The position numbers are program-made. Shown here piece after piece: positions 39,001-42,000 of a stretch of 64,000 bases of DNA (its first letter is position 1; every line of letters starts with the position of its first letter). The stretch is from Bdellovibrionales bacterium (GTDB taxonomy: Bacteria; Bdellovibrionota; Bdellovibrionia; Bdellovibrionales; UBA1609). The DNA lies in NCBI GenBank assembly GCA_965199825.1, contig OZ241329.1:1536001-1600000 (forward strand). The letters run 5' to 3'.

Positions 39001-42000
39001 GGTGATGCAGATGTATGTGGTGGTCTCACGAAGTTTTTTTGGACGCACTCTTGGCGAATGGACTTTTGAATATCAGTTGGGTCAAGACGGAGATCATCAA
39101 AAATCCCTTTATCCTTTAAAGGTGATGGCGCGAAGTCTACTGATTTTGTTTACAGGATTTTTGGTATTTCCAATTTTATCTTGGATCATGGGTCGCGATC
39201 TCGCTGGCGAAATCACTGGGGTAAAACTGTATCAACAAAAGCTCGAGCCCCTTGTCTAAAATTATTTTGGATGGCCTTGATCAGGCCATCGCAAAAATTC
39301 GTGCAAACAAAAAAATAGTTTTTACTAATGGCTGTTTTGATCTGCTGCATGTGGGACACATTCGCTATCTTCAAGAAGCTCGAGGCCTTGGAGATATCCT
39401 TGTGGTCGGACTCAATAGCGACTCGAGTGTGCGGAAGCTAAAAGGTTTATCGCGGCCAGTTCAAACCGAAGCGGATCGCGCAGAAATTCTATCTGCGCTG
39501 GCCTGTGTGGACTACGTCACCATTTTTACCGAAGAAACCCCTTTGAATTTGATCACAAAACTAATGCCCGATGTTTTAGTCAAAGGCGGAGATTGGCCCA
39601 TCGAAAAAATCGTGGGCAGTGATCTGGTATTGTCTCGGGGAGGGCACGTTGAGTCTCTTCAGTTTCATAAGGGAAGATCAACATCCTCACTGATTGAGAA
39701 GATTTTAAAGACGACTTAAGGTTGTTTGTGAGTTTTTTAGGGCGTGTTACAGGTTTCTTGAGAGCCTCATGTGGGCACGACTTGTTTGAGTGGGCACGAC
39801 TTGTTTGAGCGGGCACGACTTGTTTGAGCGGGCACGACTTGTTTGAGCGAGCACCTCGATATCTCCGGCGGTGTTAAAATTAAGGTTAATTTTAAATCAG
39901 CGGGCACGATCAGACAGTATAATTAATTAAGAAATTTCCTGACACCTTGGCGGTGTCGTTCATTCAAGCGGGCACGAAAAAGACTTATCATTGGACGAAT
40001 TTATTTTCGGCGGCCTTAAATTGGAAACACGAAACAATTCAATCAATAAAGTTCTGAACACCTTCGGAGGTTTAGCTGCGGGCACGATCTTTTAGCGGGC
40101 ACGATCTTTTAGCGGGCACGATCTTTTAGCGGGCACGATCTTCTAGCGGGCACGATCTTCTAGCGGGCACGATCTTCTAGCGGGCACGATCTTCTAGCGG
40201 GCACGATCTTTTAGCGGGCACGATCTTTTAGCGGGCACGATCTGCAAGCGGGCACGATCTGCAAGCGGGCACGATCTGCAAGCGGGCACGATCTGCAAGC
40301 GGGCACGATCTGCAAGCGGGCACGATCTGCAAGCGGGCACGATCTGCAAGCGGGCACGATCTGCAAGCGGGCACGATCTGCAAGCGGGCACGATCTGCAA
40401 GCGGGCACGATCTGCAAGCGGGCACGATCTGCAAGCGGGCACGATCTGCAAGCGGGCACGATCTGCAAGCGGGCACGATCTGCAAGTACCTTCGTTCGCA
40501 CTTCATCCCGGTCGGCTAATATGGTTTAACCTTTTAAAATCGACCTAAAAAATGCGACTTTAATTTGGCTTGCGGCGGAAAAGTCCAATTCTTACAATTT
40601 CATAAAGGCAATCACCGCTGGCTCAAAAGATTCTTGAGATCCCATAGAGCCTTGGAGTTCGTTTTGCAGTGTTTGCTCCAATGCGAATTTTTTTTCTTAC
40701 TTCATTCCTATTCACCGCTTGCGCCTGGGGAGATCCCTTTGCTGCAGGCCAAACTCTGAAGCGAGAACCTGTCTCTCAACTTGAAGAGATTGACGGAGTT
40801 TGGAACGAAATGGGGATCGCTTGCGTAAATATAACCACTGGAAAAATATTAAAGTTTGTCGATACGCGGGGGCCGTCGAATAAATTCACGGTGGACACGC
40901 AGTCCCACCAATTTTTCGAAAGCCGAAGTACGACAGGATGGGAAGACAACCAACGAACCACACCCTTCACAGGTAACGGAATTTTTGAGGTTCACAATTC
41001 AAAAATCGCAATCCTTTATCTGACCCCTTGGTGTGCCTTGCCCAATCCCGCAATGTGCGGACAGTATTATGAGAAAAAGCCGATCGAACTTTTTTGGATC
41101 AATCGAGAGTGGCTTGGCCTTCAAAAGCAAAAGGGTCTGCCTTATTTTCGGTGTAATCAGTTTCCTGATGCTGGTGCTTTAATTTTATACTCAAGAAATC
41201 AGGTCAGCTAAAAACGAACGCCCGCCTTCGCGCTATAAACAAAATCATGATAGCGATCGACCTCACCCGCGATAAAATAAATATCGTGATGATAGGTTAA
41301 ACCAAGAACCGAATGAATGGTTGAGGCATGCTCATGAAGGGTATTGCTGTTTGGGTCCACAAGACTTGGATCAACAACGCCATCGCCAGAATTTCCGCCG
41401 GTAAAATTCGCATCAGCCGTGAGATATCCTGCGCCCAAAAAAATTGATAAATCCTCGACATTGATTCCAGCAACCATTTGAAATCCATAACTCTGGGTCG
41501 AAAAAGAATCTTTGATTCCGATCTGATCGGCGTGGGCAATCAGACTCAAGTTGATCGGCAATAATTCGGATTGGAAAAACGACCAACGAAACAATGCGCC
41601 AAATTCAGAGATCCGCGATTTGCCGATAGGTGGAACAAAATGAATAAACGAATCGATATTCTCGAATAGCCCTTTGCCTAAACTGAGTGAGGGAAATTGC
41701 AGGTCCTGTTGGGCAAGGGGTCCAAGACTAATCGATTCAAACGCAAGGCCCACCTCAACACCCGAAAATCCGCCAAGGGGTAAAGGATTACTCAAAATTT
41801 TTGTGCTGGTATTAAACCCGAGCAGATGAACAACGGTTGATCGCTGATCTGCGTTTAGGTTTTTAGGAATATCAAAAGCAAAAGCTTGAAGGACAAACAA
41901 AATCCACATGCACCAAAGTGTACATGTAAAACTATTAAGCCTTCAACACTAAGAGCACCGCTTGCAGGGCGGTTTGTGCGGATGTTGCAACCGCGGTTGT

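What a model noticed while it worked through the whole genome (the two positions that open the first line are those of the whole stretch)
40480..40505. A 12-15-nt non-palindromic word (TGTGAACGAAGGTAT) is strewn 343 times through genes and spacers
The word GYGNNCGAWGGT (consensus TGTGAACGAAGGTAT) occurs 343 times, evenly over the chromosome, on both strands and in all six reading frames of unrelated genes, about 30 times more often than its mirror control and 7.6 times more often than the same proteins give with shuffled synonymous codons. I read it as a DNA-level signal that is actively kept or spread, such as an uptake/self-recognition sequence of this predator or the docking site of its HNH/Y1 nuclease families (several motif arrays start right beside it). 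New would be a DUS/USS- or HIP1-like iterated word in Bdellovibrionota, private to this lineage.
Evidence so far: Call 20: ACCTTCGTTCAC is the commonest 12-mer after the HNH-array words (57x). Calls 125,128: exact GAACGAAGGTA 61x (third-order Markov expectation 0.5); one-mismatch variants 220x, led by GAACGATGGTA 52 and GAACGAAGGTT 29. Calls 129,130,132: GYGNNCGAWGGT 184 + 159 sites against 8 + 3 for the reversed pattern; no replichore bias (left 95/95, right 89/64; cumulative GC-skew minimum 0.96 Mb at dnaA, maximum 2.35 Mb); 6-29 per 100 kb in every bin; 1.15, 1.24 and 0.89 per 10 kb in genes with NCBIfam, only Pfam, or no family. Call 131: 289 genic sites against 38.2 +/- 3.7 (max 44) in 20 synonymous-codon shuffles; every frame raised (e.g. 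opposite strand frame 0: 52 against 5 in the shuffle shown) [...]
(Added by a program. Inside this text positions count along the whole contig: contig position 1,536,001 is position 1 of the stretch shown here. "Call 12" and the like, gene names such as g00115 and contig names such as C1 are that model's own, and its searches are not shown. The text may have been shortened before it was handed on; [...] marks where a part breaks off. The agent that wrote the report below was given it as the finding of a first reader that could run no searches.)

Follow-up and report, generated by a model that had tools for sequence, protein, structure and literature searches.

The report
Private oriented DNA word, HNH-array linked
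A 13-letter DNA word has been written about 340 times into the genes of one Bdellovibrio-like predator by base changes; it is not a DNA-uptake tag but looks like an oriented protein docking site next to which repeat arrays of a nuclease gene family have grown.

Summary
The sites arise by substitution, not insertion. The word is private to this genome: 40 relatives lack it, and four sampled relatives have no word of their own.

The uptake-sequence reading is not supported: no ComEC channel domain, no ComEA, density 1 per 8 kb, no dialects.

The docking-site reading is partly supported:
- Tandem arrays with core GYGGGCACGA, also private to this genome, start 0-20 nt from the word, about 19 times more often than chance.
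- They lie on its GGTA side, in 12 of 14 cases with that side facing the oncoming replication fork (46% for all words).
- Only arrays of 9 or more cores are affected.
- The core is the coding sequence for HRAH in 26 paralogous HNH genes. Their N-terminal domain is best matched by ParB/Noc/KorB DNA-binding domains (Z 8-9).
- The Y1 family shows no link.

Best reading (about 0.4): an oriented recognition site of a ParB-fold/HNH-type reader that acts polarly on replication. What maintains the roughly 330 genic copies is unknown.

The scan noted hyper-abundant words before on other DNA, with other sequences.

The parts
40488..40499 (-). The word at the finding's coordinates (GCGAACGAAGGT, then A). 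Its GGTA end abuts the last unit of the 24-copy array.
40078..40486 (.). Tandem array, 17-nt unit GCGGGCACGATCTGCAA x 24.1. It lies on the GGTA side and the origin-proximal side of the word.
39773..39854 (.). Short array, 19-nt unit x 4.3 with the same core, in the same spacer.
2564..2575 (-). Word (GTGAACGAAGGT) 4 nt after the array at 2399-2559; its GGTA end faces the array.
2399..2559 (.). Tandem array, 17-nt unit GTGGGCACGATCTTCAA x 9.5.
29900..29911 (-). Intergenic word about 180 nt from the array at 30093-30264. Here the GTG end faces the array, so this is not an immediate junction.
30093..30264 (.). Tandem array, 25-nt unit x 6.9 with the core read as TCGTGCCCGC, upstream of the HNH gene.
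30460..31287 (+). One of 26 paralogous HNH genes (275 aa). It has a ParB-like N-terminal DNA-binding domain in the predicted model and a C-terminal HNH domain. Its 3' coding sequence CATCGTGCCCA is the array core.
33180..33191 (+). Word inside a 473-aa ORF (same strand, frame 2).
43767..43778 (+). Word inside a 309-aa ORF, read as A-N-E-G.
47223..47234 (-). Word inside the isoleucyl-tRNA synthetase gene, read as A-S-E-G. It sits at variable residues with no indel against 11 orthologues.
51749..51760 (+). Word on the antisense strand of a 770-aa ORF.

Best explanation
The word is an oriented recognition site of about 13 bp (G.G..CGA.GGT, usually followed by A) for a sequence-specific DNA-binding protein. 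This lineage has written it into its chromosome 340-420 times by base substitution.

The most likely reader is a member or relative of the genome's expanded nuclease family, which joins a ParB-like DNA-binding domain to an HNH domain. That family's own 10-bp core (GYGGGCACGA) differs from the word at two positions when the two are aligned on ACGA.

The occupied or nicked word acts in a polar way. Where core repeats lie on its GGTA side and the replication fork arrives from that side, they have expanded into long tandem arrays. This resembles repeat instability next to a replication roadblock.

Shown:
- The excess and the DNA-level nature of the word.
- Origin by substitution.
- Privacy to this genome.
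- Adjacency to arrays, the fixed side, the replication polarity and the restriction to long arrays.
- Identity of the array core with the HNH genes' coding sequence.

Inferred:
- That a protein reads the word, and that this protein has the ParB-like fold.
- That the effect is a fork stall or a nick.

Not explained: what keeps the roughly 330 genic copies.
For: Excess and nature of the word:
- 343 sites against 11 (mirror), 26.8 (Markov-4) and 37.6 (codon shuffle, genic only).
- Graded degeneracy as for a protein site. Variants of G3 (13/18/20 observed against 17.7/21.2/24.2 expected) and of A8 show no excess; Y2, N4, N5, W9 and A13 are tolerant.
- Substitution, not insertion: 61 sites were alignable to relatives (72 pairs). 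5 of 72 pairs have a gap within 3 residues, against 9.0% at random positions of the same proteins. The IleRS site is a worked example.

Privacy:
- The word is strongly raised only in G000 among 41 genomes.
- The core pattern GYGGGCACGAY gives 393 in G000 against at most 10 in each of 40 relatives.
- 400-kb samples of 4 relatives that carry many HNH paralogues show no dispersed word, while the word tops all 4 of 4 G000 chunks.

Link to arrays:
- 5 strict words lie within 30 nt of the ends of 27 core clusters, against 0.27 by chance (max 3 in 2000 trials). In 5 of 5 the GGTA end faces the array.
- Cores lie within 40 nt on the GGTA side at 13 strict or relaxed sites, against 4 on the other side.
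- 5 of 12 clusters with 9 or more cores have a word, against 0 of 15 clusters with 3-8 cores (Fisher P 0.0098).

Replication polarity:
- In 12 of 14 junctions the GGTA end faces the fork, against 157 of 343 for all words and 24 of 57 for intergenic words (P 0.0026). All 7 junctions with 8 or more cores do so.
- The 14 are one search's 13 plus the word at 1344876, which I added by hand and which counts against the pattern.
- The origin call is backed by two parS-like sites at 964355 and 964918.

Candidate reader:
- All 26 HNH paralogues carry CATCGTGCCCA, identical at the synonymous sites of the Arg and Ala codons.
- Their catalytic residues are invariant in 22 aligned sequences.
- The model has pLDDT 84. 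Its residues 4-131 match ParB/Spo0J/Noc/KorB DNA-binding domains, which take the top 12 rows of the second look (Z 9.4-5.8) and the top 4 of 48,161 chains in the search that does not use Foldseek (Z 8.2-6.3).

Precedent: a single tightly bound protein stalls forks and destabilises an adjacent tandem array (PMC7826275; abstract and outline read).
Against: - No binding, nicking or fork-pausing data exist.
- The fold match is of middling strength for a helical domain (Z 8-9), and a fold does not give sequence specificity.
- Only about 14 of 343 words touch cores, so the array link may be a side effect that says little about the bulk of copies.
- 46% of words face the fork with the supposed blocking side. 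A strong barrier would not tolerate this.
- 7 of the 12 clusters with 9 or more cores have no strict word at either end.
- The replication polarity was found after the fact, among roughly ten patterns I looked at. Two of the junctions (window 2564 and 40488) have near-identical array units and may not be independent.
- Relatives with many HNH paralogues have neither arrays nor a word, so the family alone does not produce the word.
- The similarity of word and core rests on short motifs (my rough estimate, P about 0.01).
Confidence: 0.4

Rival explanations
1. Landing pad. The word is the preferred target next to which mobile HNH-array cassettes insert. This could happen by one-sided copying primed from the word, or by a single-strand mechanism coupled to replication. 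The genic copies are simply unoccupied targets.
For: - In about 6 of 26 HNH loci the order is word, then core array, then leader, then HNH gene.
- Arrays begin 0-20 nt after GGTA.
- Array units at different loci share a longer consensus, so they spread between loci.
- The orientation bias relative to replication resembles that of single-strand transposons. For these I saw only search listings and abstract starts of PMC5027513 and PMC3971601.
- 4 words lie within 120 nt 3' of tRNA genes, against 0.57 expected.
Against: - A target preference does not explain a 13- to 30-fold excess of the target inside genes.
- Core orientation relative to the word is mixed: 3 against 3 among the long arrays with a word.
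- Only long arrays carry the word, which fits expansion better than insertion.
- No empty site could be examined, because no close relative is held.
Confidence: 0.15
2. Repair or conversion bias. A mismatch-directed or nick-directed repair activity, analogous to very-short-patch repair (recalled), converts near-cognate sequences into the word. The excess is then a mutational footprint with no function for the copies themselves.
For: - The sites arise by substitution in all frames, against codon usage.
- Residues at the sites are slightly less conserved than elsewhere in the same proteins, 43% against 51%.
- Intact HNH nuclease paralogues are abundant.
Against: - I know of no repair system with 13-nt asymmetric specificity (recalled knowledge).
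- The absence of any excess of variants at G3 and A8 fits both repair bias and selection, so it does not decide between them.
- This reading does not predict the fixed side or the replication polarity of arrays.
Confidence: 0.12
3. Transfer-coupled drive. The word is a self-DNA tag favoured during DNA uptake (like USS/DUS), packaging or recombination of incoming DNA, and it accumulates because tagged alleles are inherited more often.
For: - The signature is formally that of USS/DUS: a non-palindromic word on both strands, in all frames, evenly spread and private to the lineage.
- DprA is present.
Against: - No ComEC channel domain, and only a metallo-beta-lactamase piece of ComEC_Rec2.
- No ComEA-type protein.
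- No large terminase (two families searched) and no HK97-type capsid, so no support for a packaging route.
- Density is 1 per 8 kb. USS/DUS are recalled as about 1 per kb.
- No dialects in 40 relatives or in four sampled genomes.
- No close inverted pairs.
Confidence: 0.07
4. Chi-like signal that modulates a helicase-nuclease during break repair.
For: The density of 1 per 8 kb is of the order recalled for Chi in E. coli. The word is oriented.
Against: - No orientation skew with replication: 157 of 343.
- 13 informative positions, against the 5-8 recalled for known Chi sites.
- RecC was not found. AddAB was not searched.
Confidence: 0.03
5. Composition, codon usage, a protein motif or a fragment of a repeat element.
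For: - 11 sites come from one fibre protein repeat.
- The codon-shuffle expectation (38) exceeds the mirror control (11).
Against: - The excess survives the Markov-4 and codon-shuffle controls in every frame.
- Flanks are random.
- Relatives of similar composition lack it.
- Contigs from another sample carry three of the words unchanged.
Confidence: 0.01

Closest known systems
DNA uptake sequences (USS of Pasteurellaceae, DUS of Neisseriaceae)
   Same: A non-palindromic word, hyper-abundant, on both strands and in all reading frames of unrelated genes, spread evenly and specific to a lineage.
   Different: - About ten times sparser than recalled for USS/DUS.
- No ComEC channel and no ComEA.
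- No dialects in relatives.
- No terminator-like inverted pairs.
- It has a fixed-side link to tandem arrays and to replication direction, which is not known for USS/DUS (recalled).
Noc binding sites (NBS), parS and KorB operators: sites read by ParB-family DNA-binding domains
   Same: - Dispersed chromosomal sites, mostly inside genes (NBS, recalled).
- The organism's own parS-like sites (TGTTCCACGTGGAACA, two copies at the origin) have a half-site that starts with GTG, like the word.
   Different: - The word is asymmetric, whereas those sites are palindromes read by dimers.
- About 340 copies, against the tens recalled for NBS.
- The candidate reader has an HNH nuclease domain, and only its DNA-binding part aligns to ParB (no CTPase domain aligned).
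- Binding is untested.
Polar replication barriers (Tus-Ter; Fob1 at the rDNA fork barrier) and protein roadblocks next to tandem repeats
   Same: - An asymmetric site with a sided effect.
- Tandem arrays lie on the side from which the fork arrives.
- A single bound protein can stall forks and change the copy number of an adjacent array (PMC7826275; abstract and outline read).
   Different: - Ter sites are few and all oriented to let origin-to-terminus forks pass (recalled). Here 46% of 343 sites face the fork.
- No Tus or RTP homologue was sought.
- Pausing has not been measured.
Iteron or centromere-like arrays of ParB-type partition and repressor systems (F sopC, RK2 KorB operators; recalled)
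   Same: Tandem or clustered copies of a short binding site stand next to the gene of a protein with a ParB-like DNA-binding domain. Here they lie upstream of every HNH paralogue, all in one orientation.
   Different: - This concerns the core arrays rather than the word.
- The core is also the gene's own coding sequence for HRAH.
- The gene product is a nuclease.
- There are 26 chromosomal copies.
HIP1 of cyanobacteria; Chi
   Same: Short words kept far above expectation inside genes.
   Different: - HIP1 is a palindromic octamer.
- Chi is 5-8 nt and skewed with replication (both recalled).
- The word is a 13-nt asymmetric site without skew.
DUF222-HNH multi-copy genes (13E12 repeat family of mycobacteria; recalled)
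   Same: A multi-copy chromosomal gene family with a helical N-terminal domain and a C-terminal HNH domain. The protein atlas puts the N-terminal part next to a Bdellovibrionota cluster named DUF222 (score 0.94; the family is on 12% of members).
   Different: - Pfam itself gives no DUF222 hit.
- I know of no report of core arrays or of a dispersed word for that family.

Membership tests
USS/DUS-type uptake sequence | Hyper-abundant short word on both strands, independent of reading frame | tested here: met
   343 against 11, 26.8 and 37.6 in the three controls; all six frames raised
USS/DUS-type uptake sequence | Competence machinery with a ComEC channel and a ComEA DNA receptor | tested here: not met
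   PF03772 gives 0 hits. TIGR00361 matches only positions 576-660 in a 248-aa frame. HHH_3 passes its cut-off only in a 794-aa frame. The genome is scored 100% complete.
USS/DUS-type uptake sequence | Related dialects in sister lineages | tested here: not met
   Not found in the 40 relatives searched. The modest excess in G001 and G005 is heterogeneous at the NN positions. No word of their own in 400-kb samples of 4 relatives.
USS/DUS-type uptake sequence | Preferential uptake of DNA that carries the word | not testable with these tools
   Needs a transformation or uptake assay.
Chi | Orientation skew co-directional with replication | tested here: not met
   157 of 343 face the fork; right replichore 90/63, left 94/96
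Chi | RecBCD or AddAB reader | tested here: inconclusive
   RecC family PF04257 gives 0 hits. AddAB was not searched.
ParB-family binding site (parS / NBS / KorB operator) | Read by a protein with the ParB-type DNA-binding domain | tested here: inconclusive
   The N-terminal domain of the HNH family matches ParB/Spo0J/Noc/KorB DNA-binding domains best (Z 9.4-5.8, 96-133 residues aligned). Z is middling for a helical domain. Binding to the word is untested.
ParB-family binding site (parS / NBS / KorB operator) | Palindromic 13-16 bp site read by a dimer | tested here: not met
   The word is asymmetric. The genome's true parS-like palindromes are two other sites at the origin.
Polar replication terminator (Ter-like) | Asymmetric site with a sided effect relative to fork direction | tested here: met
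   Arrays lie on the GGTA side, which faces the fork in 12 of 14 junctions against a baseline of 46%. The effect itself (pausing) is inferred.
Polar replication terminator (Ter-like) | Sites oriented to let origin-to-terminus forks pass | tested here: not met
   157 of 343 words present the putative blocking side to the normal fork.
REP / MITE / IS fragment | Conserved flanks or hairpin; mainly intergenic | tested here: not met
   Flank information is about 0 bits beyond -1 and +12. Flank identity is 0.25. 286 of 343 sites are genic.
Insertion footprint | Extra letters relative to orthologues | tested here: not met
   5 of 72 aligned pairs have a gap near the site, against 9.0% at control positions.
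IS200/IS605-type target site | Link to Y1 (HUH) transposase genes | tested here: not met
   6 relaxed words within 900 nt of 17 Y1 genes, about 5 expected by my estimate. The Y1 genes have their own upstream motif.

The most novel reading that the evidence does not exclude
The word is one of several hundred polar protein-DNA sites that pause or nick. They are read by a nuclease family that joins a ParB-fold DNA-binding domain to an HNH domain, are spread through the genes of a predatory bacterium, and seed and expand tandem arrays on their fork-facing side. This would be a genome-wide oriented signal of a kind not described for bacteria. It is distinct from uptake sequences, Chi, KOPS and Ter, and it would come with an identifiable candidate reader.
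Probability: 0.2. Interest if true: 0.85.

Novelty: new variant of a known kind. Interest (0 to 1): 0.66.

Why it matters
Three things make this case useful.

- The word comes with a concrete candidate reader family: 26 intact nucleases with a ParB-like DNA-binding domain and an HNH domain.
- It has a physical phenotype in the sequence itself, namely array growth on one side, in one orientation to replication.
- It shows the full USS/DUS-like signature in a genome that lacks the uptake channel. Such signatures therefore cannot be taken as evidence of natural transformation.

If the polar effect is real, it would also be a natural case of a protein roadblock or nick driving tandem-repeat expansion in bacteria.

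Tried and rejected
Searches for closer relatives:
- The one metagenome scan, with the IleRS protein, found nothing closer than 49% identity.
- Among the held genomes the best IleRS match is 62%. Site conservation at the DNA level and empty-site tests were therefore impossible.

Sequencing runs:
- No RNA holder is listed.
- Contigs of 3 runs were laid on 20 kb with 6 words. X1 is the source. X2 is the same strain from another sample and covers three words with 0 differences. X3 is a near-identical relative in 300-nt contigs. Nothing was learned about word polymorphism or cassette presence.

Other negative or uninformative results:
- Rfam on the window: 0 families.
- Packaging or GTA idea: TerL_ATPase, Terminase_6N and Phage_capsid all gave 0 hits.
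- Reverse transcriptase: found only on the small contig C2.
- Repeat content on the two sides of the word. My mask flagged 54% of the genome, so the result (0.51 against 0.54) is uninformative.
- Upstream arrays at the HNH homologues of G036, G040, G030, G034 and G015: none like those of G000 in the 5 loci held.
- The two word-free gaps of 75 and 59 kb have ordinary G+C, 0.426 and 0.431, and were not followed further.
- NCBIfam, PADLOC and PDB sequence searches name only the HNH domain.

Literature: two full-text searches (Bdellovibrio with natural transformation and DNA uptake; Bdellovibrio with HNH endonuclease and repeats) listed no paper on an iterated word or on HNH arrays in this group. 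Only the listings were seen.

Rejected on the evidence: insertion footprint, protein motif as the full cause, a link to the Y1 family, and a causal role of HNH expansion alone.
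Full report
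**1. The observation**

The site named in the finding is real. Window 40488-40499 reads GCGAACGAAGGT on the minus strand, directly after a 24-copy 17-nt tandem array at 40078-40486. The window has 7 matches to GYGNNCGAWGGT against 0.33 expected.

In the whole assembly (2.84 Mb in 5 contigs; window = C1:1536001-1600000):
- The pattern occurs 184 + 159 = 343 times, all on C1, against 8 + 3 for the reversed pattern and 26.8 under a fourth-order Markov model.
- For the 13-mer GTGAACGAAGGTA there are 23 exact copies, 164 one-off and 233 two-off. Permuted words give means of 0, 1.8 and 45.

**2. What kind of repeat it is**

- It stands alone. Sixty positions of flank carry no information beyond T at -1 and A at +12, so it is not a piece of a REP, MITE or IS element.
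- It is not a protein motif. On my rough map of 2489 ORFs, shuffling synonymous codons within each gene leaves 37.6 +/- 6.5 genic sites against 286 observed, and each of the six frames is raised 4.5- to 14-fold. Eleven sites are an exception: they sit in one repeat (LPANDG) of giant fibre genes at 198-241 kb.
- It is not an insertion. 61 sites could be aligned to translated 400-kb samples of four relatives (72 pairs). 5 of 72 pairs have a gap within three residues, against 9.0% at random positions of the same proteins. Residue identity at the sites is 43% against 51%. In isoleucyl-tRNA synthetase the word occupies variable residues between conserved blocks, with no indel in 11 orthologues.
- Spacing is Poisson-like (CV 1.06), with two long gaps of 75 and 59 kb.
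- There is no strand bias by replichore.
- Recognition is graded. Variants at G3 and A8 show no excess over expectation. G1, G7, G10, G11 and T12 show modest excesses, mostly G to A.

**3. Who else has it**

- Among 40 relatives of the same family and order, none approaches G000. The modest excess in G001 and G005 has no preference at the NN positions and looks compositional.
- The nearest held genomes are only about 60% identical in IleRS. The single metagenome scan found nothing closer.
- A de novo word search ranks the word first in 4 of 4 G000 chunks of 400 kb (-log10 P 12-24, flank identity about 0.25). The same search finds nothing comparable in 400-kb samples of G017, G034, G036 and G015.
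- The word is therefore private, and sister lineages have no dialects.

**4. Not an uptake sequence**

- The ComEC channel family gives no hit in this genome, which is scored 100% complete. The full ComEC_Rec2 model matches only its metallo-beta-lactamase end in a 248-aa frame. The ComEA-type HHH_3 domain passes its cut-off only in a 794-aa frame. DprA is present.
- A packaging-based drive has no support either: two large-terminase families and the HK97 capsid family give 0 hits.
- RecC was not found, and there is no replication skew, so a Chi-like reading is weak.

**5. The link to the HNH arrays**

The genome has 26 paralogous HNH genes of about 280 aa plus one short one, and 17 Y1 genes.

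The arrays and their core:
- TRF finds 23 tandem arrays with periods of 16-25 nt or multiples, all with the core G[CT]GGGCACGA.
- That core is the reverse complement of CATCGTGCCCA, the coding sequence for H-R-A-H in the HNH motif. All 26 paralogues carry it, identical at the synonymous sites of the Arg and Ala codons.
- Upstream of every paralogue the cores stand in one orientation. In about 6 loci a word closes the distal end of the array.
- The core pattern is as private as the word: 393 in G000 against at most 10 in each relative.
- The HNH family itself is multi-copy in several relatives: G015 36, G036 21, G034 19 matches.

Adjacency:
- 5 strict words lie within 30 nt of the ends of the 27 clusters with 3 or more cores, against 0.27 expected (maximum 3 in 2000 random placements). 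In 5 of 5 the GGTA end faces the array.
- Counting strict and relaxed words, cores lie within 40 nt on the GGTA side at 13 sites and on the GTG side at 4.
- Core orientation relative to the word is mixed.
- Only long arrays are involved: 5 of 12 clusters with 9 or more cores against 0 of 15 with 3-8 cores (Fisher P 0.0098).
- The Y1 genes have their own upstream motif and no excess of words.

**6. Replication polarity**

The cumulative GC skew puts the origin at 0.965 Mb and the terminus at 2.355 Mb, giving two arms of 1.39 Mb. Two parS-like palindromes sit at 964355 and 964918.

- Of the 14 words with cores close on the GGTA side (one search's 13, plus the word at 1344876 added by hand), 12 present that side, and hence the array, to the oncoming fork.
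- The baseline is 157 of 343 for all words and 24 of 57 for intergenic words (binomial P 0.0026).
- All 7 junctions with 8 or more cores do so. So do all 6 strict words with two cores within 40 nt.
- HNH genes themselves are co-oriented and head-on 13 to 13. This is my count from the coordinates.
- The pattern was found after the fact, and two junctions may share ancestry, so I treat it as a strong lead rather than a proof.

**7. A candidate reader**

- An AlphaFold model built from 22 family members (pLDDT 84) has a helical N-terminal domain, a beta hairpin, further helices and the HNH domain.
- ParB, Spo0J, Noc and KorB DNA-binding domains, several solved on their DNA sites, fill the top 12 rows of the second look (Z 9.4-5.8, 96-133 residues). 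They also take the top 4 of 48,161 chains in the search that does not use Foldseek (Z 8.2-6.3), with unrelated helical proteins following at 5.6 or below.
- The tool warns that such Z values are middling for helical domains.
- Pfam, NCBIfam, PADLOC and PDB sequence searches see only the HNH part. The protein atlas places the N-terminal part beside a Bdellovibrionota cluster labelled DUF222 (a lead only).
- Aligned on ACGA, the word (T-G-Y-G-A-A-C-G-A-W) and the core (Y-G-G-G-C-A-C-G-A-Y) differ at two positions.

**8. Reading**

The simplest account of all this is that the word is an oriented protein recognition site, read by a member or relative of this ParB-fold/HNH family. The bound or nicked site interferes with forks that arrive at its GGTA end, so neighbouring core repeats expand there.

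That a single bound protein can stall forks and change the copy number of an adjacent array is shown for dCas9 in yeast (PMC7826275; abstract and outline read).

Against a strong barrier stands the fact that 46% of all words face the fork.

The main open question is what keeps the roughly 330 genic copies. The candidates are:
- a conversion drive by the nuclease;
- a pure repair bias.

The landing-pad rival explains the junctions but not the abundance.

**9. Comparison and verdict**

The signature is that of USS/DUS, but two defining features fail (machinery, dialects) and one is far off (density). The word is closer in logic to dispersed sites of ParB-family proteins and to polar replication barriers, yet it meets neither family's definition: it is not a palindrome, and its sites are not oriented permissively.

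I file it as a new variant of the known kind 'iterated chromosomal word'. It has a candidate reader and a sequence-visible polar effect.

Notes of this scan report hyper-abundant words on other DNA (soil Verrucomicrobia, Gemmatimonadales, giant viruses) with other sequences. I did not test those.

Noticed in passing
window 30093-31287; also 2399-2559 and 39773-40486; genome-wide: 26 paralogous, apparently intact HNH genes each sit behind clusters or long tandem arrays of a 10-nt core. That core is their own coding sequence for HRAH and is conserved even at synonymous sites. The predicted N-terminal domain resembles ParB/Noc/KorB DNA-binding domains. The arrays look like operator or centromere-like arrays. 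This system deserves a report of its own.
   Followed up: partly
window 22056-22346 (+) and 62553-62834 (-); 17 loci genome-wide: 17 paralogous Y1 (HUH) transposase-like genes of about 180-200 aa each have 1-5 copies of another motif (containing AATGACA) upstream, mostly in one orientation. The layout parallels that of the HNH loci.
   Followed up: partly
window 2641-2656, 29962-29978, 30049-30066, 39858-39874, 40059-40076: Small hairpin-like motifs of the type ACACC-TTCGG-AGGT or CACCGCCGGAGAT recur in the spacers that carry core arrays.
   Followed up: no
G000 C1:964355 and 964918: Two identical parS-like palindromes (TGTTCCACGTGGAACA) lie at the GC-skew minimum and mark the origin region.
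   Followed up: partly
G000 C1:198633-240927: Giant fibre genes (ORFs of up to 8.8 kb) repeat a motif WTLPANDG(S/T)ANQ whose DNA matches the word. Three pairs of words there are spaced exactly 146 nt apart.
   Followed up: partly
G000 contigs C2-C5: The four small contigs (12-21 kb) are internally repeated, with units of about 3.5, 2.1 and 12.2 kb, as if they were concatemers of small circles. They hold no word. C2 carries a reverse-transcriptase domain in a 1291-aa open frame and a 320-nt tandem repeat.
   Followed up: no
G000 C1:2404652-2479893 and 1967994-2027265: Two word-free stretches of 75 and 59 kb with ordinary G+C. The longer one is unlikely under Poisson spacing (about 0.03 by my estimate).
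   Followed up: partly
G000 C1:71555, 168283, 739770, 2667410: Four words lie within 120 nt 3' of tRNA genes (0.57 expected). A fifth lies inside a tRNA-Ser gene.
   Followed up: partly
HNH gene positions: Only 1 of the 26 paralogous HNH genes lies between 1.6 and 2.5 Mb, the terminus-proximal third of the chromosome.
   Followed up: no
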